Assembly (NCBI GenBank): GCA_965222445.1
Contig: CBDCTY010000002.1
Location: forward strand, 365,279-429,278
Source: Dehalococcoidia bacterium
GTDB lineage: Bacteria; Chloroflexota; Dehalococcoidia; Lucifugimonadales; CAJWER01
Length of the DNA stretch: 64,000 nucleotides
Direction: 5' to 3'
Shown: positions 994 through 61,001 of the stretch, piece after piece
Layout: the number at the start of each line of letters is the position of its first letter
Numbering within the stretch: the stretch's first letter is position 1
The notes under the pieces: generated by a model
The model's input: only the letters and a program-made list of their open reading frames with translations
Told to the model about the DNA's origin: nothing
Databases searched by the model: none
Program-made: the position numbers and the translations under genes

Positions 994-1008
994 ATGTGCG
1001 CCAGCGTC

Positions 1009-5315: not shown

Positions 5316-5336
5316 CACGTCGTGGAAGTCCTGCTC

Positions 5337-47065: not shown

Positions 47066-47242
47066 CCGCCATAGTAGCCACCACAGACTTGCCCGACCCT
47101 TGTCCAAGGCTCACTGGAGCCACGCTAATGGGTTGGTCAGGAGCTCGATGCTCGCACTTGTGATGCTGCGAGAGATATTCGGACATAGTCTCTCGACTTC
47201 GCCCGCCTTGTAATGCCACAATGTTAACCTGTGAGGCCACTC

Positions 47243-50200
47243 ATGGTGAATCGCTTCTTCGAACAACCCATACTCAACTCCCCTTACGAGTACCCAGCGA
47301 AGCACTGGGAGCTCGATGATCAGGGCCAGCCGACCCAGCAGATCATCGAGAACCGGCGAGGCGCGGAGTTCATCACGCCCATCCCGAAGCCCAGGAAGCG
47401 AAGGGCGGATAAGCGTCAGCAAGAATTCGTCATCGACGAGGGCAAGGGGCTGTCCACCCAGGAGCAACAGTACGACGTCACGGCGATGGTGAATGAGATT
47501 CGCCGCCAGGTCGACCAGTGGCGGGAGCTGCGCAATCCCAACGACTGGCGCGTCACGCCTGAGACCGCCCGCCTGCTCCAGCATTGGCGACACCACGACT
47601 TCAGCGACATCCGTCCCTTCTTCTGCCAGAGGGAGGCGGCCGAGACGGTCATATGGCTGACCGAGGTTGCGCCTAAGTCCGGGCAGGCCGGAAGGCGACT
47701 CCTCGACCGTCTCGCCAACACCAACAACGACGCCAACCCGGAGCTGTCGCGCCTAGCCCTGAAGCTGGCCACCGGCGCCGGCAAGACCACCGTCATGGCC
47801 ATGATCATCGCGTGGCAGACCATCAACGCCGTCCGGCATCCCAACAGCAGGCGCTTTACGCGGGGTTTCCTGGTAGTGGCTCCGGGCATCACGATCAAGG
47901 ATCGGCTGCGCGTGCTTCAGCCCAACGACCCGGACAGCTACTACGCTAGCAGAGAGCTGGTGCCCAGGGAGATGCTCGGAGACCTTGAACGCGCCAGGAT
48001 CGTCATCACCAACTTCCACGCACTCAGGCTGCGTGACCGTATGGAGCTCTCCAAAGGCGGACGTGCGCTCCTACAGGGCCGCGGGGCCGAGTTGGATACA
48101 GTGGAGACCGAGGGGCAGATGGTCCAGCGCGTCATACCCGATCTCATGGGTATGAGGAACATCTGGGTGCTGAACGACGAAGGACACCACTGCTACCGCC
48201 ACAAGCCGGGCGAGGACGACGAGGACACGCTTAAGGGCGACGACAGGAAAGAGGCCGAGAAGAATAACGAGGCCGCCCGTGTGTGGATATCAGGGCTGGA
48301 AATCGTCAAGCGTAGGATCGGCGTCAGGCAGGTTGTCGACCTGTCAGCGACCCCCTTCTTCCTTCGAGGCTCCGGCTATGCCGAGGGCACCCTGTTTCCC
48401 TGGACGGTCAGCGACTTCTCGCTCATGGACGCCATCGAGAGCGGCATCGTCAAACTGCCCCGCGTGCCGGTGGCTGACAACATCCCAGGCGGCGACATGC
48501 CCAAGTACCGCGTCCTGTGGGAAACCATCCGCGGTGACATGCCCAAGAAGGGCCGGGGCAAAGCGAAGGGGGCTCTCGACCCGCTCAGTCTGCCGGTGCA
48601 GCTTCAGACCGCCCTTCAAGCTCTCTATGGGCACTACGTGAAGACCTACGAAGCCTGGGCCAAGGCAGGAATAACCGCGCCGCCCTGCTTCATAGTGGTC
48701 TGCAACAACACCTCTACCTCTAAGCTGGTCTATGACTATATCTCCGGCTTCTACCGTGAGAACGAGGACGGCTCCGAGACCCTGGAGCAGGGCCGCCTTG
48801 CCCTGTTCCGAAACTTCGATGATCACGGCAACCCGTACCCTATACCCCAAACGGTGCTGATAGACAGCGAGCAGATCGAGTCCGGCGACGCACTGGACAG
48901 GGACTTTCGCAAAATGTCCGCCGATGAGATCGAGCGTTTCCGCAGGGAGAGGGTGGAGCGCACAGGCGACGCCCGGGAGGCCGAGAATATCACCGACCAG
49001 GACCTTCTCAGGGAGGTGATGAACACCGTCGGCAAGGAGGGCCGCCTTGGGCAGTCCATCCGTTGCGTCGTGTCGGTCTCCATGCTCACCGAGGGTTGGG
49101 ACGCGAACACCGTCACACACGTTCTTGGCGTGCGAGCCTTCGGGACCCAGCTTCTGTGCGAGCAAGTCATTGGCCGCGCCTTGCGCCGACAGTCCTACGA
49201 ACTCAACGACGATGGACTGTTCGATGTCGAGTACGCTGACGTGCTTGGCGTACCGTTCGACTTCACGGCGAGGCCGGTCGTCGTAAAGCCCCAGCAGCCT
49301 CGCCAGACCGTACAGGTAAAGGCGGTTCGGCCCGAACGGGACCATCTAGAAATCCGGTTCCCCAGGGTGTCAGGCTATCGCACCGATCCGCCCAGGGAAG
49401 AGCTCGCGGCCGAGTTCACCGACGACTCCTACCTGGAGCTTACGCCAGAGTTGGTCGGCCCGTCGACGACTAGGAACGAGGGCATCATCGGCGAGGGTGT
49501 CGATCTCAACCTGGTGCACACCGGCGATCTCAGGCGCTCCACCTTGCTGTTCCACCTCACGCAGCGACTGCTATACACCAAGTGGCGTGACTCAAACGAA
49601 GACCCCAAGCTGCACCTATTCGGGCGGCTAAAGGGAATCGCAAGACAGTGGCTGGACGGCTACCTAGTCTGCAAGGGCGGCACCTATCCGGCACAGCTCA
49701 TGTACCAAGACTTGGCGGACAGGGCTTGCGAGATCATCACGGCCGCCATCACCAACAGCCGCGCGAATGGGTATCCCGTCAAGGCGCTGCTCGATTCGTT
49801 CAACCCGACCGGATCGACCGTGCACGTGAACTTCAGCACGTCCAAGACCAGCCGCTGGGAGACGGACTCTCGCAAGTGCCACGTGAACTGGGTCGTCCTC
49901 GACAGCGACTGGGAGGCCGAGTTCTGCCGCGTGGCCGAGGCCCATCCCAGGGTGCGGGCATACGTGAAGAATCACAATCTGGGTCTTGAGGTGCCGTACC
50001 GCTCCGGCTCCATTGCACGCACCTACATCCCCGACTTCATCGTCCAGGTAGACGACGGACGCGGGGAAGACGACCCTCTTAACCTTGTCGTGGAGATCAA
50101 GGGCTACCGCAACGAGGACGCCAAGGCGAAGAAGCTCACCATGGAGACGTACTGGGTCCCCGGCGTGAACAACCTTCGCCAGTACGGACGGTGGGCCTTC

Positions 50201-50383
50201 GCAGAGTTCACGGACGTTTACGACATTGAAGCCGGGTTCGACGGCCTGGTACAGAGGTTCGTGGGGGGATCCAGCATTCCGGACTACAGCGCTCTCAGCG
50301 CCAAGGAGCTGCTCGCGTCCTGTCCCATTGACGAGGAGTATTTGGTCCGGCCTCGCGAGTTCCCGAGAGACATCGATTTTTGA
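47243..50383 (+). CDS. res: type III-like restriction enzyme Res subunit (SF2 helicase plus C-terminal PD-(D/E)xK nuclease)
   Basis: MVNRFFEQPILNSPYEYP N-terminus, LATGAGKTTVMA (motif I), VLNDEGHHCY (DEGH, motif II), SVSMLTEGWDANTVTHVLG (motif V/VI region) and PDFIVQV..x13..VVEIKGY nuclease core. Confidence 0.85.
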   Translation: MVNRFFEQPILNSPYEYPAKHWELDDQGQPTQQIIENRRGAEFITPIPKPRKRRADKRQQEFVIDEGKGLSTQEQQYDVTAMVNEIRRQVDQWRELRNPNDWRVTPETARLLQHWRHHDFSDIRPFFCQREAAETVIWLTEVAPKSGQAGRRLLDRLANTNNDANPELSRLALKLATGAGKTTVMAMIIAWQTINAVRHPNSRRFTRGFLVVAPGITIKDRLRVLQPNDPDSYYASRELVPREMLGDLERARIVITNFHALRLRDRMELSKGGRALLQGRGAELDTVETEGQMVQRVIPDLMGMRNIWVLNDEGHHCYRHKPGEDDEDTLKGDDRKEAEKNNEAARVWISGLEIVKRRIGVRQVVDLSATPFFLRGSGYAEGTLFPWTVSDFSLMDAIESGIVKLPRVPVADNIPGGDMPKYRVLWETIRGDMPKKGRGKAKGALDPLSLPVQLQTALQALYGHYVKTYEAWAKAGITAPPCFIVVCNNTSTSKLVYDYISGFYRENEDGSETLEQGRLALFRNFDDHGNPYPIPQTVLIDSEQIESGDALDRDFRKMSADEIERFRRERVERTGDAREAENITDQDLLREVMNTVGKEGRLGQSIRCVVSVSMLTEGWDANTVTHVLGVRAFGTQLLCEQVIGRALRRQSYELNDDGLFDVEYADVLGVPFDFTARPVVVKPQQPRQTVQVKAVRPERDHLEIRFPRVSGYRTDPPREELAAEFTDDSYLELTPELVGPSTTRNEGIIGEGVDLNLVHTGDLRRSTLLFHLTQRLLYTKWRDSNEDPKLHLFGRLKGIARQWLDGYLVCKGGTYPAQLMYQDLADRACEIITAAITNSRANGYPVKALLDSFNPTGSTVHVNFSTSKTSRWETDSRKCHVNWVVLDSDWEAEFCRVAEAHPRVRAYVKNHNLGLEVPYRSGSIARTYIPDFIVQVDDGRGEDDPLNLVVEIKGYRNEDAKAKKLTMETYWVPGVNNLRQYGRWAFAEFTDVYDIEAGFDGLVQRFVGGSSIPDYSALSAKELLASCPIDEEYLVRPREFPRDIDF

Positions 50384-50820
50384 CGTATCTGCTCGATACC
50401 AACGTGATCTCGGAACTGCGCAAGGGCGACCGCTGTGACGCCAACGTGACGGCTTGGTACGCAGGCGTGGAGGAAACGGACATATTCCTTAGCGTACTGG
50501 TGCTTGGTGAGATGCGCAGAGGCATCGAGTGGATACGGAGGCGTGATCCGCAGCAGACCGTCGTTCTGGAACGCTGGCTCGAAGAGACCGCTCTGAGGTT
50601 CGCCGGTCGGATAATGCCCGTCGACGACATGATTGCCGAACTTTGGGGGAGAACATACTATGTGCGCAACGTCCCAGTGGTCGACGGCCTGTTGGCTGCC
50701 ACCGCCATGGCGCATGACATGACCCTGGTAACTCGAAATGTCTCGGACGTTGAAGGGCTGGGTGTACGAGTGCTCGACCCCTTCAGAGGAAACGACAACT
50801 CGCACGAATTAGTCCAATAG
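50380..50820 (+). CDS. vapC: VapC-family PIN-domain toxin
   Basis: YLLDTNVISELRK, GEMRRG and LLAATAMAHDMTLVTRNVSD. The TTG start overlaps the res stop (TTGA). Confidence 0.9.
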   Translation: MTYLLDTNVISELRKGDRCDANVTAWYAGVEETDIFLSVLVLGEMRRGIEWIRRRDPQQTVVLERWLEETALRFAGRIMPVDDMIAELWGRTYYVRNVPVVDGLLAATAMAHDMTLVTRNVSDVEGLGVRVLDPFRGNDNSHELVQ

Positions 50821-50837: not shown

Positions 50838-53495
50838 ATGCCAAAAGGACGAGCCAAACGGCCCAAGTCAGTCGAGACCCTCACACACGAGGAGGCCCGG
50901 CGGAGAAACCTGCCGTCAGCCGAGCACCAGCCTCTGATGCGAGAGGAGGAGCAGAGCGCCGTTCGCGTGGCCTACGAGCGGCGCAACCGCGATCTGGATC
51001 CTCAGCTCGTGTGGCGGGGCAAGGACGAGCAGGACTCGGAGGACCTGGAGGTCAACGTCCCGCCGCTGTACATCCAGGAGCGGACCCACCCGAAGGTACT
51101 GGTCGACGACCTGATGCGGCAAACCGGCAGCGGCGGGACATCGGAGGACGAAGGGCGACAGCAGGGGTTCGCGGACCTGTTCGCCGACTTCAACGGCCTG
51201 CCGTCCGAGGACGCGAAGACCGAGTTCTACCAGCACGACGCCAACTGGTCGAACCGCATGATCCTCGGCGACAGCCTGCAGGTGATGGCGTCGCTCGCCG
51301 AGCGCGAGGGACTGCGGGGCAAGGTGCAGTGCATCTATGTCGACCCGCCCTACGGCATCAAGTTCAACTCCAACTTCCAGTGGTCCACGACCAGCCGCGA
51401 CGTGCGTGACGGCAACGCCGCTCACATCACCCGCGAGCCGGAGCAGGTGAAGGCATTCCGCGACACTTGGCGCGACGGGATTCACTCGTACCTGACCTAC
51501 CTGCGCGACCGCCTAACCGTGGCCCGAGACTTGCTCTCCGATTCGGGTTCGATCTTCGTGCAGATTGGGGATGAGAACGTTCATCGTGTGCGAGCACTCA
51601 TGGACGAGGTATTTGGGGACGGAAACTTCATCAGTCTTATAACCTATCGCACGAGCAGCGGAACCACGCAACAGAGTTCAGTCAAACGCGTATCGGACTA
51701 CATAGTTTGGTACTGTAAAGACTCGGACTCGATTAAGTTCCGGAGGCTACTTGAGGATAAGCACGTTGATACCAGTATGTACAATCAACTGGAACTTGAG
51801 AATGGGACTCGACGTCCTATGACCGCAGACGAAAGACGTGACCCTTCAACTTGCCCTGCCGACGCCCGACCATACCAGAAGCTTCCAGTTCATTCTATGG
51901 CTTCTGGAGACCATGAGCCACGGGCGATTTTTGGAGCCGTCTGGCGCATACCGCCAACTTCTCATTGGCGGTATGCGCCAGACGGCTTTACGAGACTTTA
52001 CAAAGCCTCACGCATCCATCCTGACAGGACAGCCCTCAGAGCGGTCTACCATCACGATGACTATCCAGCCTTCGAAATCTCAAACTCATGGATCGATACT
52101 GGCCCTGAAATTGAGAAGTCTTATGTAGTTCAGACTTCAACGTCACCAATTGAACGCTGCATCCTGATGACGACCGATCCCGGAGACTTAGTGCTGGATC
52201 CAACCTGTGGGTCAGGCACCACCGCCCATGCCTCTGAGAAGTGGGGCCGCCGCTGGATCACCATCGACACCTCTCGTGTGGCACTCGCCCTAGCCCGTGC
52301 CCGTATCATGGGAGGCCGATATCCGTACTACCTACTCTCAGACAGCCGTGATGGGCAAGTCAAGCAGGCGGAGATCGAGCGCAAGGCCGCATCAGAGTCT
52401 CCTACATACGGGGATATCCGCCAAGGCTTCGTCTACGAGAGGGTGCCGCACATCACGCTACGGGCCATCGCCAACAACACGGAGATCGACGTTATCTGGG
52501 AGGACGCCCAGGAGGATTTGGAGTCCCTTAGAGAGGAGTTGAACCACGTGCTCGGCGAGTCGTGGGAGGAGTGGGAAGTTCCCCGCGATGCGGATAAGGT
52601 CTGGCCGGATGACGCACGAAGTCTTCACGCCCAATGGTGGGAGCGACGCATCGCGCGCCAGAAGGAGATCGACACTTCCATAGCCGCCAAGGCCGACTAC
52701 GAGAACCTATACGACAAGCCCCATGAGGACCGAAGCAAGGTAAGGGTCGCGGGGCCATTCACGGTCGAGAGCATCTCACCACACCGTGTCCTTGGAGTAA
52801 ACGAGGACGGTGACGTCATCGCAGAGTCGTCCAACGGTTACGGGAGCGAATATGACTTCGCTCAGGTCATGCTGGACAACCTGGGAACCTCTGGCGTACA
52901 GCAGGCCAATAGAGAGGACAGGATAGAGTTCACGTCCATCACCCCCTGGCCGGGGCGTTTGGTGTGCGCTGATGGGCGCTACGTGGAGGGCGGCGAGGAG
53001 AACGGCATCGAGCGCCGCGCCGCGATCTTCATCGGCCCCGAGTTCGGCACGGTGTCCCGCCCGGACCTCGTGGAAGCGGCGCGCGAGGCCGCTGACGGCG
53101 GATTCGATGTCCTAATCGCCTGTGCCTTCAACTACGAGGCGCACACCACCGAGTTCGAGAGCCTTGGGCGGGTCCCTGTGCTGAAGGCTCGCATGAACGC
53201 CGACCTCCACATGGCCGAAGACCTGAAGAACACGGGCAAGGGCAACCTGTTCGTGATCTTCGGAGAGCCGGACATCGACATCCTCGACGCGGACGATGGC
53301 CGGATCCAGGTAAGGGTCAACGGCGTGGACGTGTTCCATCCCAATACGGGCGAAGTACGCAGCGACGGGCCGGAGGGAATCGCCTGCTGGTTCATCGACA
53401 CCGACTACAACGAAGAGGCGTTCTTCGTCCGTCACGCCTACTTCCTGGGAGCCAGCGACCCATACAAGTCGCTGAAGACCACGCTCAGGGCTTGA
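50838..53495 (+). CDS. mod: type III-like DNA methyltransferase Mod (N6/N4 class), 3' end frameshifted
   Basis: LVWRGKDE, NRMILGDSLQVM, IYVDPPYG (motif IV) and DPTCGSGTTAHA (motif I). The conserved-looking C-terminal tail continues in another frame (53494-53631). Confidence 0.85.
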   Translation: MPKGRAKRPKSVETLTHEEARRRNLPSAEHQPLMREEEQSAVRVAYERRNRDLDPQLVWRGKDEQDSEDLEVNVPPLYIQERTHPKVLVDDLMRQTGSGGTSEDEGRQQGFADLFADFNGLPSEDAKTEFYQHDANWSNRMILGDSLQVMASLAEREGLRGKVQCIYVDPPYGIKFNSNFQWSTTSRDVRDGNAAHITREPEQVKAFRDTWRDGIHSYLTYLRDRLTVARDLLSDSGSIFVQIGDENVHRVRALMDEVFGDGNFISLITYRTSSGTTQQSSVKRVSDYIVWYCKDSDSIKFRRLLEDKHVDTSMYNQLELENGTRRPMTADERRDPSTCPADARPYQKLPVHSMASGDHEPRAIFGAVWRIPPTSHWRYAPDGFTRLYKASRIHPDRTALRAVYHHDDYPAFEISNSWIDTGPEIEKSYVVQTSTSPIERCILMTTDPGDLVLDPTCGSGTTAHASEKWGRRWITIDTSRVALALARARIMGGRYPYYLLSDSRDGQVKQAEIERKAASESPTYGDIRQGFVYERVPHITLRAIANNTEIDVIWEDAQEDLESLREELNHVLGESWEEWEVPRDADKVWPDDARSLHAQWWERRIARQKEIDTSIAAKADYENLYDKPHEDRSKVRVAGPFTVESISPHRVLGVNEDGDVIAESSNGYGSEYDFAQVMLDNLGTSGVQQANREDRIEFTSITPWPGRLVCADGRYVEGGEENGIERRAAIFIGPEFGTVSRPDLVEAAREAADGGFDVLIACAFNYEAHTTEFESLGRVPVLKARMNADLHMAEDLKNTGKGNLFVIFGEPDIDILDADDGRIQVRVNGVDVFHPNTGEVRSDGPEGIACWFIDTDYNEEAFFVRHAYFLGASDPYKSLKTTLRA

Positions 53496-53631
53496 GATCG
53501 ACGCAGATGCCTGGGCGACGCTCCACAGCGACACCTCGCGCCCGTTCAACAAGCCCGACTCCAGCCGCATCGCCGTCAAAGTCATCAATCACCTCGGCGA
53601 CGAGGTGCTGAAGGTGTTCCGGGTAGAATGA
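53494..53631 (+). pseudogene. displaced C-terminal 45 codons of mod
   Basis: EIDADAWATLHSDTSRPFNKPDSSRIAVKVINHLGDEVLKVFRVE* sits in the frame shifted by one base. Removing one T at 53492-53493 joins ..LKTTLRA to EIDADAW. Confidence 0.6.
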
Positions 53632-53700
53632 ACTGGCTTAACTCAAACGGGAGTTGTGTAGGATGAACTGGGAAGGCATTGCTGCCTCGGGGACTACAGG

Positions 53701-56472
53701 ATGACGTTTACGAGACAGGACGCTGACAACTGGGCGAAAGAGGTGCCGGGTGCGCGGTGGCTCAAGGCCGATCTGCACATCCACACCGTGGACGACCTTC
53801 CGGGACGCAGGGCGAAGTTCCCGGCCGACGTTAACGGGGACCCGCAGGCGTCCAATACCATTTCGGCCTACGCCAAGCGGTTCCTTCAGAGCGCGGCGGA
53901 ACGTGGCGTGCGGGTGCTTGGCATCACACCGCACTCGCCCCGCGTCGGAACCGCAGCGGAGACCAGTGTGGTGTGGAGGATAGTGGAAGAGTGGAACAGC
54001 GGCGTCGATGACGATGATGTCCCGTTCCGGGAAAAGATATACGCTGTGTTCCCCGGCTTCGAACCGTCCTTCAACCAAGGTCGCAGCGGACTACACATGC
54101 TGTTCCTGTTCGATCCGGAGATAGGCCGCACCGACTATCTAAAGGCCTTCGACCTTGTGATGGGTGGGGTGTCGCCGTGGAATGGGCGCGAGCTTCAACT
54201 GTCCGGGAGGGGCGCCAGTGATGCGTTCAGTGAACTCCGCAAGTTCCACCGTCGTGAAGGTCGCAGGTCAGATGATGGTGGCTTCCAATGGAACTATATG
54301 ACGCTTGCGCCTCACATCGACCAAGAGAAGGGACTGCTTGGAGCACAGGGGATGCATGTGCTGAACCTCTTCCCACACTCTGAGGTGGCCGGCCTAGAGC
54401 TCGGTGATGAAAAGTTGCCCGAGGATTACATGGGAGGCGGTTTGGATCTGGCGAAAAGAATGGCGGAGCTTCGGCAGGCGTTCTACCACAGTAGTGATGC
54501 CTATAGGATCGACGAAATTGGCAAGCGCCATACATGGCTCAAGCTCGCCAGTCCTAGGATAGAGGCGTTGCGGCAGGCGTTCATCGCCAGCGAATCAAGA
54601 ATGCGGATAGGATACGAACGTGGTGAAGACGGCACCTTGTACGAAGCTCCAGATCCCCCCGACGTAACTATGAACAAACGTCCGTGGCTGAAGTCCGTCA
54701 GGGTCTCCGGCAAGGCTTCGTTCTTCGGCGCCGGCGGTGAAGACGGACAGGGCAGCCATTTCGACTTCAGCCCCGACCTTACTTGCGTCATTGGCGGCAG
54801 CATGACGGGCAAGAGCACCCTCCTCGACGGTCTGAGAGTGCATGTCGACGCCCCGCTGCCAGAGGACGACAGCGTGAGGAAACAGGTTGAGGCGCGCGGC
54901 AGGGACCGCTTTCTGAGTGGCTCTGCGGAGGTTCTTCTCGACTGTCCTGGTCGGGATCCGACTGCGGCGCCTCGTGAGCAGTGGCCTGCGGAGTTCTACA
55001 CGCAGACCGAGTTGCAGAGGCTGGCGCAGAACCCCGAGGCTGTAGAGGACATTCTCGCCAGGCTGGTGGCGTCTGAGACACAAGACATCATGGAACGTGA
55101 GGGACGCTTGGGCGAGCTCGACGGGGAATTGACTCGCGCCGCCGGTCGTCTCGCGAAACTAGGCGACGACCAGGCGGATGCCGAGCAGGCATTCCAGAGA
55201 AGCCAGAGAGCGGCAGAGGAGCTTGCCGCATTTTCGGATGCCGGCGTGGAGAGCTTGAATCGCGTGTCCAGCGATCTGAGCCGCTCGCGGGGTTCTGCAA
55301 AGGCTGCGACTGAGCTGGCGGGCGAGGTGGACAGGCTCTTGGAATCTATATCGGTGGTAGACATACCGGATATCGACGACGGCCTTACCGGAGTGCTCGA
55401 AGCCGCGGGGATAGTTGAGGGCGAAGTGGACTTCCGCGCGCGGTGGGACCGTATTCGACGCTCGCTAAGGTCCGCTAAGGACGAGTTGGGTGCGGCGAGT
55501 GTTGTGCTCAAGTCCATAGTTGATGCGCTGGAAGACCACGAGGATAGTGTCCGTGTACGGGTAGACCGCGATTTGGCGGCCCGTGAACTGGATGGAGCGA
55601 GGATCAATCAGCTCCAGGAGCTGACCGCTCAGGCTTCACTGCTGGAGAGCTATCAGGCGCATCTCAATGAACAGCGAGGCACGCTTCTCCGCGCTAAGGA
55701 CAAGTTCGAAACACTGCGCCAAGAGCGAAGGGACCTTGTGCAGCAGCAGCGATGCGCGTTCGACCGTGTGATGGATGCGGTCCATTCCCAGTTCGACGGC
55801 CGAATAGAGGCCCGTCGGATCGATGAAGGCCGCAAAGACACTCTGGATCGTCTTCTCAGGGCGTTGAATCAGAGGGGGATCACACGATGGTGGAATGATT
55901 TGACGGATGAGCAGCGGCCCGCGCCCGATGACCTGCTCGAAAAGCTAGCCTCTGGGCATTTGGAAGAAGTCGGAATGAGCGAAGCAGTGGGTGAAACGTT
56001 CCGGGTGCAATTCACCCCATCGAGACAGCGCGAACTGGCAGCCCTCCGTTGTCCAGATAACTACGTGCTGGAATTCATGATGGGAGATGGCAGCTATCGG
56101 CCGCTAAGGGACCTTTCCGGCGGCCAGCGGGTGAACCTCTTGCTCTCTCTCCTGTTGGAGACAAATGACGAGCGGCCTCTGGTAATTGATCAGCCCGAGG
56201 ATGAACTGGACAACCGGTTTTTGTTCGAGACGATGCTTCCTGCACTCAAGCGGCTCAAGGGACGCAGGCAGATCATAGTAGCGACGCACAACGCGAATAT
56301 AGTGGTCAACGGGGACGCCGACCAAGTGATTCAATTGGAAGCGACCGCCGACCATGGATATGTTGCACGTTCAGGGGCCATCGAAGAGCCCGCCGTCCGA
56401 GATGCTATCGTCCAGACGGTTGATGGAGGTGACGAGGCATTTCGTCTGCGTCGGTTGAAGTACGGCTTCTAG
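53701..56472 (+). CDS. PHP-domain phosphoesterase fused to SMC/ABC-like ATPase (Ppl/TrlF-like architecture)
   Basis: KADLHIHTVDD and LGITPHS are PHP metal ligands and GGSMTGKST is Walker A. A coiled-coil of about 350 aa follows, then LSGGQR (signature-like), LVIDQPEDELD (Walker B) and VATHNANIVVNGDAD. Confidence 0.8.
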   Translation: MTFTRQDADNWAKEVPGARWLKADLHIHTVDDLPGRRAKFPADVNGDPQASNTISAYAKRFLQSAAERGVRVLGITPHSPRVGTAAETSVVWRIVEEWNSGVDDDDVPFREKIYAVFPGFEPSFNQGRSGLHMLFLFDPEIGRTDYLKAFDLVMGGVSPWNGRELQLSGRGASDAFSELRKFHRREGRRSDDGGFQWNYMTLAPHIDQEKGLLGAQGMHVLNLFPHSEVAGLELGDEKLPEDYMGGGLDLAKRMAELRQAFYHSSDAYRIDEIGKRHTWLKLASPRIEALRQAFIASESRMRIGYERGEDGTLYEAPDPPDVTMNKRPWLKSVRVSGKASFFGAGGEDGQGSHFDFSPDLTCVIGGSMTGKSTLLDGLRVHVDAPLPEDDSVRKQVEARGRDRFLSGSAEVLLDCPGRDPTAAPREQWPAEFYTQTELQRLAQNPEAVEDILARLVASETQDIMEREGRLGELDGELTRAAGRLAKLGDDQADAEQAFQRSQRAAEELAAFSDAGVESLNRVSSDLSRSRGSAKAATELAGEVDRLLESISVVDIPDIDDGLTGVLEAAGIVEGEVDFRARWDRIRRSLRSAKDELGAASVVLKSIVDALEDHEDSVRVRVDRDLAARELDGARINQLQELTAQASLLESYQAHLNEQRGTLLRAKDKFETLRQERRDLVQQQRCAFDRVMDAVHSQFDGRIEARRIDEGRKDTLDRLLRALNQRGITRWWNDLTDEQRPAPDDLLEKLASGHLEEVGMSEAVGETFRVQFTPSRQRELAALRCPDNYVLEFMMGDGSYRPLRDLSGGQRVNLLLSLLLETNDERPLVIDQPEDELDNRFLFETMLPALKRLKGRRQIIVATHNANIVVNGDADQVIQLEATADHGYVARSGAIEEPAVRDAIVQTVDGGDEAFRLRRLKYGF

Positions 56473-56482
56473 GAGGCCGGGA

Positions 56483-57670
56483 ATGGAATGGCTGAGAATC
56501 CTTGAGTGTATCGAACGAGGTGAGGATAGACACACCGAGTTCAAACGTGGGCTTGGCGATCTGTCGGCGGTCGGCAAATCAGTTTGCGCCTTCGCGAACA
56601 CTGAGGGAGGCGTCATCATACTAGGCGTAACCGATACTACCCGGCAGATTGTGGGTGTCAAGGAGGACGCTGAACAGGTCCAAGAGAAGTTAGCGTCGTT
56701 TCTTCAGTCTGGCTGCAGCTCACCGGTTTCTGCTCGCGCCGGGCGACATGAGAGTCCGAACGGTTGGGTCCACTGGCTTGAGGTCCCTCGCCAGCGCGGC
56801 TTTGAGCCCTTACGGTACGGTGGTCGAGTGTGGGTACGCCGGGAACGGAGCAGCGTCGAGCCATCTCCGACTGAGCTTCAAGAGCTATACAACGCCTTTG
56901 GGTACATCTTCACTGAGGAACGCACGATACAAGCTGCGACGGCGGCTCATGTCGATCTTCAAGTCTTCCACGCCTATCTCCAAGAGGTCGGACTCGACAT
57001 CGAGGACGAACCCCAGCCCGATGATGAGGACGACCTCCGTAATCGCGGTGTGGTAGCGGAGTTGGGAGGCGTGTTGCATCCTACGCTCTACGGCGTGCTG
57101 GCATTTGGCAAGGAGCCACAAAGCTATCCGCAAACACAAAACTTCCGGGTAGAGTGTGTCGCATACGAGGGCGACGACCGGGCTTCGAATGTGCTGCAAG
57201 TGGCTGAAGCCTCAGGCCGTCTGGACGAACAAGTACTACGAGCGGTCGGCTGGTTCTCGAGCCTCGGGCGGTTCGAGTCGTACCGTGGACTGATCAGGGA
57301 AGACCATCCGTTGCTGCCACAGGCGGCTCTTCGAGAGTCGCTGGTAAACGCTGTGGTGCACAGGGACTACGCAATCACCGGATCGAAGGTGCTGCTTGAG
57401 GTTTTCACTCGGCACGTAGACGTGACGAGCCCGGGCGGATTGCCCAATCACATGAGTGTCGAGAGTGTCCAGGCCGGCGGTCATCCGCGGTCGAGGAACG
57501 AGTCGATGGCGAACTACATGCTGGTGATGGGTTACATGGAGCAGCGGGGCAGGGGTTGGCCTGTGATGCGCAGGGCAATGCGCGAGTTCAACGGAACCGA
57601 ACCTGAGATTACGCAGGGAGACTCTGGCGCATTTGTCAGATTGAGATTCCATCTCGAATCATTAAAGTAG
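56483..57670 (+). CDS. AlbA_2 (Schlafen-type) DNA-binding domain plus HATPase_c_4-like domain protein
   Basis: GEDRHTEFKRGL..VCAFANTEGGVIILGV is AlbA_2. NAVVHRDY..TSPGGLP..RSRNESMANYM..GYMEQRGRG is HATPase_c_4-like. Confidence 0.8.
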   Translation: MEWLRILECIERGEDRHTEFKRGLGDLSAVGKSVCAFANTEGGVIILGVTDTTRQIVGVKEDAEQVQEKLASFLQSGCSSPVSARAGRHESPNGWVHWLEVPRQRGFEPLRYGGRVWVRRERSSVEPSPTELQELYNAFGYIFTEERTIQAATAAHVDLQVFHAYLQEVGLDIEDEPQPDDEDDLRNRGVVAELGGVLHPTLYGVLAFGKEPQSYPQTQNFRVECVAYEGDDRASNVLQVAEASGRLDEQVLRAVGWFSSLGRFESYRGLIREDHPLLPQAALRESLVNAVVHRDYAITGSKVLLEVFTRHVDVTSPGGLPNHMSVESVQAGGHPRSRNESMANYMLVMGYMEQRGRGWPVMRRAMREFNGTEPEITQGDSGAFVRLRFHLESLK

Positions 57671-57674
57671 TGAC

Positions 57675-59696
57675 ATGGACTTTCGGATTGCCGATACGTT
57701 TACGGGTAGTCTTACGAGGTTGACCGGCGACGAGCAGAAGGTCATCAAGACCACGGCCTTCGATCTACAAATGGACCCATCCCGTCCGGGCCTGCAACTC
57801 CACAGGCTTGATGGGGGACGAGACCGCAACTTCTGGTCTGTACGGGTTAGCCGCGACATCAGGATCATCGTCCACCGGACCCAAAGTAGCCTCATGCTCT
57901 GCTACGTCGACCACCACGACGAGGCGTACAGTTGGGCAGTGCGACGCAAGCTAGAGACCCATCCAAAGACCGGCGCTGCCCAACTGGTCGAGGTGCGAGA
58001 GACTGTCGAGGAGATTGCCGTCCCAGTATATGTTCCGGTAGCGCAGGAAGCGCAACCCAAGCGCCTCCCGTTCGCCGGTTTGTCAGACGATCAACTGCTG
58101 AGCTATGGGGTCCCTGCCGAGTGGCTGCCCGACATCCATACCGCCGATGAGGACGGCATTCTCGATCTTGCCAGCCATCTGCCAAGTGAGGCTGCAGAAG
58201 CGCTCTTGGAGTTGGCCACTGGCGGGACGCCCCAGGTTCCTAGCCCTGTTGCAGCAGGTATCGACCCATTCGATCACCCTGACGCGCAGCGCCGCTTCCG
58301 CGTCATGCGCGATTGGGAAGCGTTGGAGCAGGCCCTCGACTACCCGTGGGAGAAGTGGGCAATCTTCCTGCATCCGTCCCAGCGTGCGATAGTCGAACGG
58401 GACTATACCGGTCCTGCCAGAGTCTCAGGCTCGGCGGGTACGGGGAAGACCATCGTTGCGCTACATCGTGCGGTACATCTGGCTCGTACGAATCCCAACG
58501 CCAGAGTGCTGCTGACGACATTCTCGGAGACGCTCGCTAACTCGCTGCGCGACCGGCTGCGTATACTCGTCAGCTCCGAGCCCCGACTCGCAGAGCGAGT
58601 GGAAGTCTACGCCATGGACGCTCTTGGGGAGAGGCTGTTCGAGCTCAACCTGGGCGCGCCTTCGTATGCCTCGGAAGCGCAGATCTACACGCTGATCGAG
58701 GAGGCGGCTACCAACGTCGAGGGCAATAGGTTTGCGACGAGCTTCGTGCTGACGGAGTGGAAGCAGGTTGTGGATGCGTGGCAGCTCGATACATGGGAAG
58801 CCTATCGTGATGTCCCTCGCCTCGGCCGCAGGCGGCGGTTACCCGAAAGCCAACGCCAAGTTCTGTGGTCAATCTTCGAGCATGTACGGTCAGGGCTCAA
58901 AGAGCGGAATCTAACCACACGTTCGGAGATGTTTGGGCAGCTTGCGTCCAGGTTCGGCGAGACCCAGCGGTCGCCATTCGACTTCATAGTCGTGGACGAG
59001 GCGCAAGATATAGGCGTATCCCAGCTTCGCTTCCTTGCATCTCTGGGAGCGGAGCGGCCCGATGGACTCTTCTTCGCAGGGGATCTGGGCCAGCGCATCT
59101 TCCAGCAGCCGTTCTCGTGGCAAGCGCTGGGCGTGGAGATACGTGGGCGCTCCCGCACGCTGAAGATCAACTACCGGACCTCACACCAGATCAGGAAACG
59201 GTCCGACCTTCTCTTGGGGACGGAAATATCCGACATCGACGGCAACACGGAAGAGCGCTCAGGCACGATATCGGTATTCAACGGCCCCGAGCCGTCCATA
59301 GCGATTGCCGAATCCGCTGAGGAAGAACCCACGGCCGTCGCCGACTGGCTAATTGAGTTAATTGGACGAGGCCTGGAGCCTCACGAGATCAGCGTCTTCG
59401 TCAGATCAACCGATCAGGTCGACCGTGCCACTACTGCTATCGAGGCCGCCGGGCTACGGTCCAGAGTCCTGGGCGATTACGTTCAGACGACCGGAAGGCA
59501 CGTCTCGGTCAGCACCATGCATTTGGCGAAGGGACTGGAGTTCCGCGCCGTTGCTGTCATGGCCTGCGACGATGAGGTCATCCCGCTTCAGGAGCGGATT
59601 GAGTCGGTCACCGACGACTCGGACTTGGAAGATGTAGAGACTTCTCCGGCTGTCGTATCGTGTCAGAGGCGACAGGCATTCCAGAGGAAACCGTGA
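57675..59696 (+). CDS. SF1 UvrD-like helicase with RelE/ParE-fold-like N-terminal domain
   Basis: N-terminal motifs FWSVRVSRDIRIIVHR and YVDHHDEAYSWA. The helicase part has SGSAGTGKT (Walker A), FIVVDEAQD (motif II), INYRTSHQI and VSTMHLAKGLEF. The ORF ends soon after a degenerate motif VI (SCQRRQAF). Confidence 0.8.
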   Translation: MDFRIADTFTGSLTRLTGDEQKVIKTTAFDLQMDPSRPGLQLHRLDGGRDRNFWSVRVSRDIRIIVHRTQSSLMLCYVDHHDEAYSWAVRRKLETHPKTGAAQLVEVRETVEEIAVPVYVPVAQEAQPKRLPFAGLSDDQLLSYGVPAEWLPDIHTADEDGILDLASHLPSEAAEALLELATGGTPQVPSPVAAGIDPFDHPDAQRRFRVMRDWEALEQALDYPWEKWAIFLHPSQRAIVERDYTGPARVSGSAGTGKTIVALHRAVHLARTNPNARVLLTTFSETLANSLRDRLRILVSSEPRLAERVEVYAMDALGERLFELNLGAPSYASEAQIYTLIEEAATNVEGNRFATSFVLTEWKQVVDAWQLDTWEAYRDVPRLGRRRRLPESQRQVLWSIFEHVRSGLKERNLTTRSEMFGQLASRFGETQRSPFDFIVVDEAQDIGVSQLRFLASLGAERPDGLFFAGDLGQRIFQQPFSWQALGVEIRGRSRTLKINYRTSHQIRKRSDLLLGTEISDIDGNTEERSGTISVFNGPEPSIAIAESAEEEPTAVADWLIELIGRGLEPHEISVFVRSTDQVDRATTAIEAAGLRSRVLGDYVQTTGRHVSVSTMHLAKGLEFRAVAVMACDDEVIPLQERIESVTDDSDLEDVETSPAVVSCQRRQAFQRKP

Positions 59697-60482
59697 TAAC
59701 CATCTGGAAGCAGCGTAATAAGCCCTTCGCATCCCAAATGCAGAAACATTGGAAGGCCATCGCAGAACGCAACGGGCCATTCCATTCCACGGAGGGCTGA
59801 CCCCAACTCGAGCTTACGGACCCAGTCGTCCTCCTATCGGTAGACCTTTCCTGTTCCAGGTCACCAATGTGCCTTGGCCTAGGTCGTGCACTTGCATGAC
59901 CACTGGCCGGGGCGTTTGACTCGCGCGTAGGTGTAAAGGGTGTCGATGGCCAGTGGTGACGGGCTGGGACCCCTCGATGCCCGACACGGAAGAGGACAGG
60001 TGGGCAATTGGGAGGTCACTCCGGCGCGCGACGGTGTATCTGCGGAGACGGACGCGGGCGCTACCATGGACGTGCCCAAGGACGTGTAGGCTGAGCTACG
60101 TCAGCGCGCCGAGCAAGAGGGCGGGCCTGTGAGCGCGACCGCGTCCGTCCGGTTCTCGCACGATCTGGTGACCCGCGAGACAGACGCCGACGTGAGTCTG
60201 CCGAGCGCGATGTCGCCAGCCGCGCAGCCGCGCTTGCGGCCGCTGCTAAGGACGCGCCTTGGGAACAGGGCGGGGCGCTATCGGGCGCTCTCAACCCCCG
60301 GTACCAGAAGATATTTGACAGTATGCAGACGGAAGGGCAGCAGTCCAAGGTAGCGAGAAGACGGGGGGGCGGGCGCCGGCGCGATGACCTGAAGGACAGC
60401 GCGTACACGATGCCACAGATCGTGATTGAGCAGGAGCCCGCATCCCTGCGGCGCGTGGGGTAGGGACATGACCACGGGCGAG

Positions 60483-60785
60483 TTAGCCGCCTCCCGACAG
60501 GCGTTTGTACATCTCTGCATACTTCCGCGACAGCTCAGGGGCGACTTCACGGTCGCCAGCTTTGCTGCGCACGCGGTTGAGGGGTGGCAGGTCGCTGGCT
60601 TCCTCCAGGGCCTCGTGGATGCGCCGGTACGTGTGTCCATTGACGAGGCGGCTGACTGCGCTGTGAGACAGACCAAAGGCGTCTGCCAACTCGTTGACTC
60701 GATAGCCCGCGCGATAACGTTTGAGAATCTCGATCACCTGATCGGTCGGGATGAGCTTTTCGCGTGCATGTGTGCGTGCTGCCAT
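60483..60785 (-). CDS. small HTH-domain regulator
   Basis: VNELADAFGLSHSAVSRLVNG fits a helix-turn-helix. Divergent from the P-loop gene across an AT-rich spacer. Confidence 0.55.
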   Translation of the reverse strand: MAARTHAREKLIPTDQVIEILKRYRAGYRVNELADAFGLSHSAVSRLVNGHTYRRIHEALEEASDLPPLNRVRSKAGDREVAPELSRKYAEMYKRLSGGG

Positions 60786-61001
60786 TGCGTACCTCTATGG
60801 TGCGGTCTCGTGCGCGGGCGCCACGGAAACCAGCCTATGTCGTGTACTGTATCAGAATTCGCGTTCGGCTGTCAGATACGAAAGCGGGCCGGTGGGCGGG
60901 GCGGTTGTGTAGACAGACCAAAAAACCCCAACCTATATTATATAAGAGGGTATTACTATTACCGCACTTTCGGACTAGACCGCTGTGGGGGGGTGCCCTA
61001 G
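60786..61001. promoter_or_regulatory. AT-rich divergent intergenic region (likely promoters/operators)
   Basis: CCTATATTATATAAGAGGGTATTACTATTACC stands out against the GC-rich flanks. It lies between divergent genes. Confidence 0.35.

What the first reader, a model, noticed from the sequence alone, without database searches (positions are those of the whole stretch)
53701..59696. PHP-ATPase / AlbA_2-HATPase / RelE-fold-UvrD helicase cassette: candidate undescribed composite defence module
Three large same-strand genes are packed with 10-nt and 4-nt spacers (56472->56483, 57670->57675), 205 nt downstream of a type III-like R-M. Gene 1 fuses a PHP phosphoesterase (KADLHIHTVDD) to a Walker A/B SMC-like ATPase with a long coiled-coil. 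As far as I recall, that is the architecture of the single-gene Ppl system and of TrlF-like ATPases. Gene 2 is a Schlafen-type AlbA_2 domain plus an HATPase_c_4-like domain. Gene 3 is an SF1 helicase carrying a toxin-like RelE/ParE-fold N-terminus. Each domain type is individually enriched in defence islands, but I do not know a named system with this three-gene combination. The spacing suggests co-translation as one unit.
Basis: partly seen in the sequence, partly recalled or inferred. Interest (0 to 1): 0.8.

Follow-up and report, generated by a model that had tools for sequence, protein, structure and literature searches.

The report
Schlafen–ATPase pair nested in restriction operon
The three genes are not one system: the first two are a widespread two-gene candidate anti-phage module (a nuclease/ATPase plus a Schlafen-type RNA cutter), and they sit in a variable slot of a three-gene restriction-modification operon whose last gene is the helicase.

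Summary
The ORFs, spacers and domain calls are real. The proposed three-gene unit is not.

- **g1+g2 are a pair.** In 83 loci fished with gene 1, gene 2 follows it in 75. There are 72 full pairs, with a gap of 5-22 nt and correlated divergence (r=0.79). The helicase follows in only 5.
- **g3 belongs to the R-M genes.** In 33 loci fished with gene 3 that have at least 9 kb upstream, 32 carry the upstream methyltransferase and 30 also the BPTD_3080-family endonuclease.

The real layout is therefore a three-gene frame (endonuclease, methyltransferase, RelE-fold/UvrD helicase) with two internal cargo slots. Slot 2 holds 58 different gene clusters across 50 loci, including IetAS-, Hachiman-, GmrSD- and OLD/Gabija-like genes. 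In this window slot 1 holds a PIN gene and slot 2 holds g1+g2.

- **g1** is a TrlF/Ppl-like ABC/SMC ATPase with a divergent PHP domain.
- **g2** is a prokaryotic Schlafen with an intact Ex4ExK motif and a GHKL-type HATPase_c_4 domain.

I found no paper describing either the pair or the slotted frame.

In this genome the frame is decaying. The methyltransferase is frameshifted, so the "205-nt gap" is really 69 nt. The helicase has lost motif VI.

The parts
47231..50383 (+). Frame gene 1: BPTD_3080-family Res-like endonuclease (SF2 ResIII ATPase plus C-terminal endonuclease domain)
   Evidence: NCBIfam NF046055 at 1358 bits (cut-off 800), Pfam ResIII and RE_endonuc. Lies upstream of g3 homologues in 30 of 33 loci.
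50380..50820 (+). Slot-1 cargo: lone PIN-domain (VapC-like) gene
   Evidence: Pfam PIN at 45 bits. In other frames this position is empty or holds NYN, DUF1828+MNT+HepT, DUF3883 or AlbA_2-like genes.
50838..53631 (+). Frame gene 2: N6/N4 DNA methyltransferase. It is frameshifted near 53493: the ORF as read stops at 53495, and the last 45 codons continue in the +1 frame to 53631.
   Evidence: Pfam N6_N4_Mtase at 120 bits, PADLOC MTase_III at 1244 bits. The frameshift is shown by comparison with the C-termini of L001, L002 and L008.
53650..53700 (+). Conserved 5' leader of the g1-g2 cassette (GTGTA..AT at -45, CTCGG(A/G)GA at -15)
   Evidence: Both motifs occur at fixed positions in 10 of 81 g1 upstream regions, including two outside any frame (L003, L020), and in 0 control regions. 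A promoter or RBS role is inferred, not shown.
53701..56472 (+). g1: TrlF/Ppl-like protein. Divergent PHP phosphoesterase (aa 1-~335), then a Rad50/SMC-like ABC ATPase with a ~400-aa helical insert.
   Evidence: NCBIfam TrlF 350.3 vs 350; Ppl 143 vs 1000; PADLOC Ppl at 117 bits. Invariant residues in alignment A1. Rad50 and AriA hits in PDB. Transitive link to PHP.
54793..54819 (+). g1 Walker A (GGSMTGKST, aa 365-373)
   Evidence: Invariant in 27 homologues.
56113..56211 (+). g1 ABC signature LSGGQ (aa 805-809) and Walker B/D-loop LVIDQPEDELD (aa 827-837)
   Evidence: Invariant in A1. Aligned to Rad50 and AriA.
56483..57670 (+). g2: prokaryotic Schlafen (AlbA_2) nuclease domain plus GHKL-type HATPase_c_4 domain
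   Evidence: Pfam. PDB hits to SLFN5/8/14 and 3LMM. PADLOC SLFN-pAgo model matches aa 30-349. Directly downstream of g1 in 75 of 83 loci.
56522..56545 (+). g2 Schlafen catalytic motif E14-x4-E19-x-K21
   Evidence: E14 and K21 are invariant and E19 is at least 90% conserved in 20 homologues down to 53% identity. The motif is defined in PMC13056530.
57675..59696 (+). Truncated here: homology ends at about nt 59636 and motif VI is missing.
   Evidence: Pfam UvrD, Foldseek RelE/YoeB, alignment A2, DNA homology break, link to MT and RES.

Best explanation
The region is the 3' two-thirds of a six-gene, co-oriented, tightly packed array built from two nested units.

**Unit A, the frame.** This is a three-gene restriction-modification-like operon:
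- a BPTD_3080-family Res-like endonuclease;
- an N6/N4 methyltransferase;

The frame has two positions, RES|slot 1|MT and MT|slot 2|HEL, at which unrelated genes are found in different genomes.

**Unit B, the slot-2 cargo here.** This is an autonomous bicistronic module, g1+g2, that occurs mostly outside such frames.
- g1 is a TrlF/Ppl-like divergent PHP phosphoesterase fused to a Rad50/SMC-like ABC ATPase.
- g2 is a prokaryotic Schlafen RNase with an intact Ex4ExK motif, fused to a GHKL-type ATP-binding domain.

**Inferred mechanism (not shown).** g1 acts like Ppl, as an NTP-gated sensor and 3'-5' exonuclease of phage DNA ends. g2 acts like other bacterial Schlafens, with ATP-dependent oligomerisation through the GHKL domain and tRNA cleavage that stops translation. 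g1 most likely supplies, in trans, the sensor that single-polypeptide Schlafens carry as a fused domain.

The frame probably restricts unmethylated DNA in a type III-like way. The helicase's contribution is unknown.

In this genome the frame looks partly inactivated (MT frameshift, helicase truncated), while g1 and g2 are full-length.
For: **Shown**
1. g2 lies 5-22 nt (median 9) after g1 in 72 full pairs, from Dehalococcoidia, Acidimicrobiia, Acidobacteriota (Vicinamibacterales and relatives), Proteobacteria, Poribacteria and others. g1 identity runs from 49 to 83%, and g1 and g2 divergence correlate at r=0.79.
2. Look-ups starting from g2 always find a roughly 924-aa g1 homologue, or a remnant of one, 10-12 nt upstream.
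3. The nearest neighbours of the non-frame pairs (97 ORFs scanned, drawn from 55 loci) are heterogeneous, so there is no third conserved partner.
4. g3 homologues have MT upstream in 32 of 33 loci and RES+MT in 30 of 33.
5. A bare RES-MT-HEL operon with abutting or overlapping stops and starts sits on a Pseudomonas avellanae plasmid. Frames with small cargo sit on Gemmobacter, Rhizobium and Sphingomonas plasmids.
6. Slot 2 is empty in 17 of 61 loci and filled with 0.5-8 kb in 44 of 61. The cargo is 100 ORFs in 50 loci, 92 of them co-oriented, in 58 sequence clusters.
7. The cargo includes an IetA homologue (245 bits) next to an S8-peptidase gene, HamA+DEAD, GmrSD, OLD-TOPRIM, AriA/GajA/PtuA-like ATPases and nSTAND.
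8. Frames whose helicases are 84-88% identical carry different cargo.
9. In L171-L174 extra ORFs separate g2 from HEL.
10. A conserved g1 leader travels with the cassette inside and outside frames.

**From the literature**
- Ppl is a single-gene PHP 3'-5' ssDNA exonuclease/NTPase, gated by NTPs and 3'-OH ends (PMC12904381).
- Bacterial Schlafens cleave tRNA through Ex4(E/D)xK and are usually fused to sensors (PMC13056530).
- In SLFN-pAgo, GHKL ATP binding tetramerises and arms the Schlafen domain.
Against: - There are no functional data of any kind.
- All six genes are co-oriented with spacers of 69 nt or less and no predicted terminator on that strand. Co-transcription and cross-talk between frame and cargo therefore cannot be excluded.
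- The PHP assignment for g1 rests on motifs and transitive homology only.
- The Schlafen-HisKinase class was tested in E. coli but was not among the two constructs that protected. g2 may therefore be inactive alone, or may not be a defence effector.
- That g1 senses for g2 is pure inference.
- The synteny samples are biased: one genome per species for g1, and the top 80 of at least 587 metagenome hits for g3.
- g2 is absent after g1 in 8 of 83 loci, so g1 can exist alone.
Confidence: 0.8

Rival explanations
1. One reading: g1+g2+g3 are one composite three-gene defence system. The UvrD helicase serves the PHP-ATPase much as GajB serves GajA in Gabija.
For: The spacers are 10 nt and 4 nt. The same trio recurs in L001, L002/L005, L008 and L019. 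g3 matches PADLOC GajB models (70.8 bits) and g1 weakly matches GajA/AriA ATPases.
Against: The trio occurs in only 5 of 83 g1 loci, and in all five there is a methyltransferase gene or remnant upstream, with the endonuclease in four. g3's family is tied to RES+MT in 30-32 of 33 loci, with any cargo or none. g2 and HEL are separated by 4-5 ORFs in L171-L174. g3 homologues (at least 8000 clusters) far outnumber g1 homologues (850).
Confidence: 0.04
2. Integrated six-gene system. The cargo is not autonomous here. The frame guards or licenses it, as EcoprrI masks the PrrC anticodon nuclease, so the Schlafen tRNase fires when a phage inhibits the R-M enzyme.
For: The cargo is packed into the operon on the same strand (92 of 100 ORFs), with overlaps or very short gaps to the frame genes. 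g2 is a predicted tRNase, like PrrC. An R-M-embedded anticodon nuclease is an established precedent (own knowledge: PrrC/EcoprrI, RloC).
Against: About 90% of g1-g2 pairs lie outside any frame. Cargo types such as IetAS, Hachiman and GmrSD are known to work alone. Cargo differs between closely related frames, which fits a passive hotspot better than co-adapted partners.
Confidence: 0.12
3. g2 is a regulator rather than an effector. AlbA_2/HATPase_c_4 proteins are often annotated as transcriptional regulators or 'RecG-like', so g2 might control g1 expression while g1 alone is a Ppl-like single-protein defence.
For: One database source names members of g2's cluster 'ATP-dependent DNA helicase RecG'. 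Canonical TrlF on enterobacterial plasmids, and 41%-identical g1-like genes in L122/L123, stand alone without g2. Schlafen-HisKinase constructs were not among those that protected.
Against: The Schlafen catalytic residues E14, E19 and K21 are invariant or nearly so across the family. g2 is more conserved than g1 (mean 67% vs 58% identity). No Pfam family other than AlbA_2 and HATPase_c_4 matches g2, and none matches its middle region scanned alone; the protein ends 12 residues after the HATPase_c_4 match, so no HTH was found.
Confidence: 0.12
4. g1 and g2 are two independent single-gene systems (a Ppl-like gene and a pSlfn gene) that merely hitch-hike together.
For: Both protein types are known to work as single genes in other versions.
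Against: They are adjacent in 75 of 83 loci with a 5-22 nt gap across many phyla. Their divergence is correlated (r=0.79). The association holds in both directions.
Confidence: 0.06

Closest known systems
Ppl (Gao et al. 2020 single-gene system; NCBIfam NF042955, PADLOC PDLC02208)
   Same: N-terminal PHP-type phosphoesterase followed by an ABC/SMC-like NTPase in one roughly 900-aa protein. PADLOC Ppl matches g1 at E 1.7e-34. It is the likely model for g1 activity: a 3'-5' ssDNA exonuclease gated by NTPs and 3'-OH ends.
   Different: g1 scores 143 bits against a Ppl cut-off of 1000, and the best-scoring stretch is the ATPase C-terminus. g1 has a dedicated partner gene, whereas Ppl works alone.
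TrlF family AAA-like ATPase (NCBIfam NF045780)
   Same: Full-length match (aa 17-922 to model positions 2-944), just at the cut-off: 350.3 vs 350 bits.
   Different: Canonical TrlF on Klebsiella, Raoultella and Enterobacter plasmids is a solo gene next to a type II R-M and shares only about 34% identity over the last 20% of g1. I found no paper describing TrlF function.
Prokaryotic Schlafen nucleases (pSlfn), Slfn-HisKinase class, and the SLFN-GHKL module of SLFN-pAgo
   Same: AlbA_2 Schlafen domain with the Ex4ExK motif, followed by a histidine-kinase/GHKL-type ATP-binding domain. This is the commonest pSlfn architecture, at 34%. The PADLOC SLFN-pAgo model aligns to g2 aa 30-349.
   Different: Characterised pSlfns carry their sensor in the same polypeptide (Ig-like, DUF262, Ago). 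g2 instead has a conserved upstream partner gene. No defence phenotype has been reported for the HisKinase class.
Type III restriction-modification (Mod/Res)
   Same: The frame has an N6/N4 methyltransferase that PADLOC files as MTase_III (1244 bits). It also has a Res-like protein with an SF2 ATPase and a C-terminal endonuclease domain.
   Different: The gene order is res then mod. PADLOC REase_III models barely match (E about 1e-4). A third conserved gene (RelE-fold/UvrD helicase) is present in about 97% of sampled loci, and there are two internal cargo slots.
PrrC/EcoprrI and RloC (R-M-linked anticodon nucleases; from my own knowledge, not tested here)
   Same: A tRNA-cutting effector coupled to an ABC/Rad50-like NTPase and embedded within or next to an R-M operon. 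RloC joins a Rad50-like coiled-coil ATPase to a tRNase, which resembles g1+g2 taken together.
   Different: There is no sequence relationship. Here the nuclease is a Schlafen rather than a PrrC-type ACNase, the ATPase carries a PHP domain, the two functions are on separate proteins, and most g1-g2 pairs are not R-M-linked.
Gabija (GajA OLD-ATPase/TOPRIM + GajB UvrD helicase)
   Same: An ABC-type ATPase-nuclease and a UvrD-type helicase lie close together. g3 matches GajB models.
   Different: The g1-g3 linkage is not conserved. g1 has PHP rather than TOPRIM, and its GajA matches are marginal (E about 3e-3).

Membership tests
Ppl (single-gene anti-phage system) | Protein reaches the curated family score (NCBIfam NF042955, cut-off 1000 bits) | tested here: not met
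   143.2 bits; the best-scoring stretch covers aa 778-917.
Ppl (single-gene anti-phage system) | N-terminal PHP phosphoesterase domain | tested here: inconclusive
   No Pfam PHP hit on g1, the AlphaFold model failed (pLDDT 35), and there was no PDB sequence hit. However, invariant PHP-like motifs are present, and remote relatives of the N-domain carry Pfam PHP, one of them at the cut-off.
Ppl (single-gene anti-phage system) | Acts as a stand-alone gene | tested here: not met
   g2 follows g1 in 75 of 83 loci.
TrlF family AAA-like ATPase (NF045780) | Full-length match at or above the 350-bit cut-off | tested here: met
   350.3 bits, aa 17-922 against model 2-944/944. This is marginal: 0.3 bits above the cut-off.
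Prokaryotic Schlafen nuclease (pSlfn) | SLFN_AlbA_2 domain above the Pfam cut-off | tested here: met
   74 bits vs 25.3. PDB hits to SLFN5/8/14.
Prokaryotic Schlafen nuclease (pSlfn) | Catalytic Ex4(E/D)xK motif | tested here: met
   E14-DRHT-E19-F-K21. E14 and K21 are invariant and E19 is at least 90% conserved in 20 homologues. Motif definition from PMC13056530.
Prokaryotic Schlafen nuclease (pSlfn) | tRNA cleavage and phage protection | not testable with these tools
   Needs biochemistry and plaque assays.
Type III restriction-modification | Mod methyltransferase of the N6/N4 class | tested here: met
   N6_N4_Mtase at 120 bits; PADLOC MTase_III at 1244 bits. In this window the gene is frameshifted.
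Type III restriction-modification | Res subunit matching type III Res models | tested here: inconclusive
   Pfam ResIII at 26.1 and RE_endonuc at 24.0 bits, just above their cut-offs. PADLOC REase_III only at E about 1e-4. NCBIfam type III endonuclease PRK15483 at 16.6 vs 564 bits, but the separate BPTD_3080 family at 1358 bits.
Type III restriction-modification | Two-gene (mod, res) system | tested here: not met
   The loci fished with the helicase carry MT upstream in 32 of 33 cases and RES+MT in 30 of 33. The order is res-mod-hel.
Gabija | GajA (OLD ATPase + TOPRIM) adjacent to a GajB UvrD helicase as a conserved pair | tested here: not met
   g1-g3 adjacency in 5 of 83 loci only. g1 has no TOPRIM and its GajA E-values are about 3e-3.
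RelE/ParE toxin superfamily (g3 N-domain) | RelE/YoeB fold | tested here: met
   Foldseek top 35 PDB hits are all RelE/YoeB/YafQ/HigB, best E 1.2e-4, TM (target) up to 0.75, probability 1.0. Model pLDDT 77.6.
RelE/ParE toxin superfamily (g3 N-domain) | Sequence-family membership (Pfam cut-off) and a cognate antitoxin | tested here: not met
   HigB-like at 21 bits vs 27; ParE_like at 15.7 vs 24.4. The domain is fused to a helicase, and no antitoxin-like gene is seen next to it in the bare frame.
Lamassu | LmuB SMC ATPase with LmuA effector (and LmuC) | tested here: not met
   g1 matches LmuB at E 1.3e-10 through the SMC region only. No LmuA or LmuC homologue is adjacent.

The most novel reading that the evidence does not exclude
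The BPTD_3080 endonuclease, methyltransferase and RelE/UvrD helicase operon is a dedicated mobile carrier of other immune systems. It has two fixed intra-operon slots whose contents are swapped by recombination between the conserved frame genes. Cargo expression, and perhaps firing, is tied to the state of the R-M enzyme (PrrC-like guard logic).

The g1-g2 cargo is an undescribed split sensor-effector system. A Ppl-like DNA-end/NTP-sensing PHP-ATPase licenses, in trans, a Schlafen-GHKL tRNase. That would explain why the most abundant Schlafen-HisKinase class showed no protection when tested alone.
Probability: 0.3. Interest if true: 0.75.

Novelty: new variant of a known kind. Interest (0 to 1): 0.55.

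Why it matters
**1. It corrects the unit of analysis.** Cloning the three genes as one system would test the wrong thing. The constructs to test are g1+g2, and separately RES-MT-HEL.

**2. The g1-g2 pair links two recently validated immune protein types.** These are the Ppl-like PHP nuclease-ATPases and the bacterial Schlafen tRNases. The pair offers a concrete, testable idea: at least some of the abundant Schlafen-HisKinase proteins may need a separately encoded sensor.

**3. The three-gene frame may be a discovery tool.** It is widespread in metagenomes, sponge-symbiont MAGs and plasmids of cultured Pseudomonas, Rhizobium, Sphingomonas and Gemmobacter. About 70% of sampled copies carry slot-2 cargo, in 58 clusters. 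Many clusters are known defence systems and many are unannotated. The slot is therefore a ready-made bait for finding new defence genes.

Tried and rejected
- Literature searches for 'TrlF' returned only spectroscopy and unrelated papers. The origin of the family name stays unknown.
- 'BPTD_3080' returned no paper.
- Searches combining UvrD, RelE, restriction, hotspot and embedded found nothing that describes the frame.
- 'AlbA_2' with 'HATPase_c_4' gave one irrelevant paper.
- The primary Ppl mechanism paper is not in the library. I used a review instead.
- AlphaFold on the g1 N-terminal 335 aa with a 13-sequence alignment failed (pLDDT 35), so no fold search was possible for the PHP claim.
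- PDB sequence searches with the g1 N-domain profile and the g3 N-domain profile gave only chance-level hits.
- Pfam at E up to 10 on the g1 N-domain, the g2 middle region and the methyltransferase C-terminal half gave nothing.
- A search for the missing 3' end of g3 elsewhere in the window gave only noise, so the piece is deleted rather than displaced.
- The exact-sequence contig look-up for the window's g1 found nothing on record.
- The first neighbour alignment was too large for the family scan and was redone with 97 sequences.
- A Gabija-like reading of g1+g3 was considered and rejected on synteny.
- A Lamassu reading was rejected for lack of LmuA and LmuC.

Full report
**Observation.**
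- g2 has SLFN_AlbA_2 (74 bits) and HATPase_c_4 (63 bits). g3 has UvrD-helicase and UvrD_C.
- g1 is an ABC/SMC-type ATPase (AAA_21, SMC_N, AAA_23). Its Walker A (GGSMTGKST), signature (LSGGQ) and Walker B/D-loop are invariant, and its C-terminal lobe aligns to Rad50 and AriA.
- NCBIfam places g1 full-length in the TrlF family, just at the cut-off (350.3 vs 350). It is far below the Ppl cut-off (143 vs 1000) and the Spaf_1101 cut-off (183 vs 475). PADLOC's Ppl model matches at E 1.7e-34, and the stretch it reports is the C-terminal ATPase region.

**The PHP claim.**
- I could not confirm it directly. There was no Pfam PHP hit even on the isolated N-terminal 340 aa, no PDB sequence hit, and the AlphaFold model was unusable (pLDDT 35).
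- Indirect support is good. DLHIHT (24-29), TPH (H78), GFE (E121), GLH (H132), APH (H205) and H263..SDAY (D266) are invariant or nearly so in 27 homologues, and they occur in the order of the PHP motifs.
- A profile of the N-domain, searched against 1.84 billion representative proteins, found 502 relatives. Five of the ten remote relatives I scanned (E 1e-12 to 1e-18) have Pfam PHP followed by SMC/AAA_23. One of them is at the gathering score (26.7 vs 26.4 bits).

**The RelE-fold claim.** This holds. An AlphaFold model of g3 residues 1-125 (pLDDT 77.6) has RelE, YoeB, YafQ and HigB toxins as its top 35 PDB matches (E from 1.2e-4, target TM about 0.7). Pfam HigB-like stays below its cut-off.

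**Two corrections to the anatomy.**
- The methyltransferase ORF stops at 53495 only because of a one-base frameshift. Homologues continue '...TTLKAEIDADAWATLHSD...KVINHLGDEVLKVFRVE*', and that text is present in the +1 frame up to 53631. The R-M to g1 spacer is therefore 69 nt, as in L001 and L002, not 205 nt.
- g3 is truncated. All homologues are 687-701 aa. The window copy diverges after residue 654 and lacks the invariant YNTERHLLYVACTRAR (SF1 motif VI). DNA homology to other loci stops at about 59636. The missing piece is nowhere else in the window. Other members of its own 90% cluster are 687-690 aa.

**Which genes belong together: starting from g1.**
- A g1 profile retrieved 80 loci from species-dereplicated genomes, mostly MAGs of Dehalococcoidia, Acidimicrobiia, Vicinamibacterales, Latescibacterota, Paracoccaceae, Poribacteria and others. 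Many carry sponge-symbiont names.
- With three more contexts, tblastn of the window proteins shows g2 directly after g1 in 75 of 83 loci. g3 follows in 5, and there are g3 remnants in 2 more.
- RES and/or MT lie upstream in 9. All five full g3 cases are among those 9.
- The 72 full g1-g2 pairs have a 5-22 nt spacer (median 9; one outlier overlaps). Their divergences from the window copies correlate at r=0.79.
- Look-ups starting from three g2 homologues always found a g1 homologue, or a g1 remnant, 10-12 nt upstream.
- The nearest neighbours of the pairs outside any frame (97 ORFs scanned, from 55 loci) are heterogeneous. They include TonB receptors, oxidoreductases, Eco57I-type methylases, BrxL and Fic. 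No third partner recurs.

**Which genes belong together: starting from g3.**
- g3's family is much larger: at least 8000 90%-clusters, against 850 for g1.
- Five contexts showed ResIII-X-MTase-Y-helicase, where X was PIN, NYN or DUF1828+MNT+HepT, and Y was nothing, DUF5677 or three small ORFs.
- A metagenome scan gave 80 more loci. Of 33 loci with at least 9 kb upstream, 32 have the methyltransferase and 30 have endonuclease plus methyltransferase on the same strand.
- On a Pseudomonas avellanae plasmid the three genes abut or overlap with no cargo. RefSeq names them 'BPTD_3080 family restriction endonuclease', 'site-specific DNA-methyltransferase' and '3'-5' exonuclease'.
- Gemmobacter, Rhizobium and Sphingomonas plasmids have the same frame with small hypothetical genes in both slots.

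**The slots.**
- The MT-to-helicase interval (slot 2) is empty in 17 of 61 loci. The measured 137-238 nt includes about 138 nt of methyltransferase C-terminus that my frameshifted query lacks.
- Slot 2 holds 0.5-8.3 kb in the other 44. The RES-to-MT interval (slot 1) is filled in 17 of 40 loci.
- Slot-2 cargo is 100 ORFs in 50 loci, 92 of them co-oriented, falling into 58 sequence clusters.
- Representatives include an IetA homologue (245 bits) beside an S8 peptidase, HamA with DEAD helicases, GmrSD, OLD-TOPRIM, AriA/GajA/PtuA-like ATPases, nSTAND, RhuM, Fic and one transposase.
- Frames whose helicases are 84-88% identical carry cargo of different size, so cargo turns over faster than the frame diverges.
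- In L171-L174 the slot holds g1-g2 plus four or five further ORFs before the helicase.
- L122 and L123 hold a 41%-identical g1-like gene without g2. L136 holds a distant g1-like/g2-like pair (25% and 26% identity).

**The resulting parse.**
- The window array is RES (47231-50383) | PIN | MT (50838-53631) | g1-g2 | HEL (57675-59696).
- The spacers are -4, 17, 69, 10 and 4 nt, and no terminator is predicted on the + strand.
- A short leader upstream of g1 (GTGTA..AT at -45, CTCGGAGA at -15) is shared by the framed copies and by two unframed ones, L003 and L020. It is absent from control regions. This suggests the cassette moved with its own 5' region.

**What g1-g2 probably does (inference).**
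- A review reports that E. coli Ppl is a PHP 3'-5' ssDNA exonuclease/NTPase, inhibited by bound NTPs and activated by nucleotide depletion and 3'-OH ends (PMC12904381).
- Bacterial Schlafens protect against phage by tRNA cleavage through an Ex4(E/D)xK site and are usually fused to sensor domains. The commonest fusion partner is a histidine-kinase-type domain, at 34%. In that study only the DUF262 and Ig-like fusions protected (PMC13056530).
- g2 has E14-x4-E19-x-K21, which is conserved across the family.
- g2 also aligns to the SLFN-GHKL part of PADLOC's SLFN-pAgo model. [quoted passage not shown]
- I therefore propose that g1 is the sensor (and a DNA nuclease) and g2 the ATP-dependent tRNase effector of a split system. 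By architecture this resembles RloC, a Rad50-like ATPase fused to an anticodon nuclease (own knowledge). Nothing here tests that proposal.

**What is known and what is new.**
- Each protein type is known. PADLOC v2 and NCBIfam have no model pair for g1+g2.
- In the paper library I found no description of the pair, of the BPTD_3080 family, or of a RES-MT-RelE/UvrD operon with internal slots.
- Defence genes embedded in R-M or BREX operons are an established theme, PrrC in EcoprrI being one example.
- I therefore rate this a new variant of known kinds, not a new category.

**State in this genome.**
- g1 and g2 are full-length.
- The methyltransferase frameshift could be an assembly error. The helicase truncation is not: the DNA is missing.
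- IS66-family transposase genes lie at 62491-63936 and, as a fragment, at 42426-43268. GC content falls from about 0.66 to about 0.55-0.61 from about 38 kb onwards. This looks like a rearranged island.

Noticed in passing
window 53480-53631: The methyltransferase has a one-base frameshift near 53493. The last 45 codons (EIDADAWATLHSD...KVFRVE*) continue in the +1 frame to 53631. This could be real decay or an assembly indel.
   Followed up: yes
window 59636-62490: Homology of g3 to all relatives ends at about 59636. Downstream lie only short ORFs and a 162-aa P-loop fragment (61002-61490, weak nSTAND3/AAA_25 hits), then an IS66-family transposase at 62491-63936. A second IS66 transposase fragment is at 42426-43268 on the - strand.
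   Followed up: partly
window 46070-47065: A REase-ARP / PDDEXK_13 nuclease gene lies directly upstream of the endonuclease. No homologue occurs next to the frame in any of the other loci, so it is a separate island gene.
   Followed up: partly
window 50380-50820: A lone PIN (VapC-like) gene without a recognisable antitoxin sits in slot 1, overlapping the endonuclease stop by 4 nt. The same PIN occupies slot 1 in L001, L002, L005, L008 and L085, but not in most frames.
   Followed up: partly
window 38000-64000: GC content drops from about 0.66 to 0.55-0.61. A 194-aa ORF with only a DALR_1 anticodon-binding domain (45207-45791, - strand) and an epimerase-GerE fusion ORF (43765-44889) lie between the housekeeping genes and the defence genes. 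This looks like an acquired, rearranged island.
   Followed up: no
window 53650-53700; L001, L002, L003, L005, L008, L018, L019, L020, L045 upstream of g1: A conserved leader with GTGTA(A/G)NAT at -45 and CTCGG(A/G)GA at -15 relative to the g1 start. In the window the 9-mer ATGAACTGG occurs twice, 35 nt apart (53629 and 53664). It may be an internal promoter or operator.
   Followed up: partly
L085 12392-18583 and L086 12464-18583: Downstream of the helicase is a conserved trio: DUF6361, a 600-aa protein and a 1060-aa DEAD-like protein. In L086 the DUF5677 gene and the helicase occur without the endonuclease or methyltransferase, next to transposase-type genes.
   Followed up: no
L104 5095-6564, L144 2825-4327, L161 1535-3007: AlbA_2-like proteins of about 490 aa (26-30% identical to g2) occupy slot 1 of three frames. 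Schlafen-type genes therefore recur as cargo in both slots.
   Followed up: no
L122 5690-8491, L123 205-3006, L136 6129-9753: A 41%-identical g1-like gene sits alone in slot 2 of two frames. A very distant g1-like plus g2-like pair (25% and 26% identity) sits in slot 2 of a third. PHP/ABC ATPase genes appear to have entered this slot more than once.
   Followed up: partly
L004-L083 record titles: A large share of g1-g2 carriers are MAGs of typical sponge-symbiont lineages (Poribacteria, Ca. Poriferisodalis, Dehalococcoidia, Latescibacterota, Acidimicrobiia). They span many phyla at 50-80% protein identity, which suggests wide horizontal spread within that habitat.
   Followed up: no
g3 residues 49-85 (window 57819-57929): The RelE-like domain keeps an invariant 'FWSVRVSRDIRIIVH...CYVDHHDxAY' stretch. 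It resembles the YoeB/RelE 'WSRRI..HRLVY' and C-terminal His-Tyr catalytic region, so the domain might still be an active RNase. This comparison is from memory and was not tested.
   Followed up: no
L184 (Methylibium pT29A) 983-7157: A BPTD_3080 endonuclease is followed directly by a Tn3 transposase, with no methyltransferase or helicase. This is an example of a frame destroyed by transposition.
   Followed up: no
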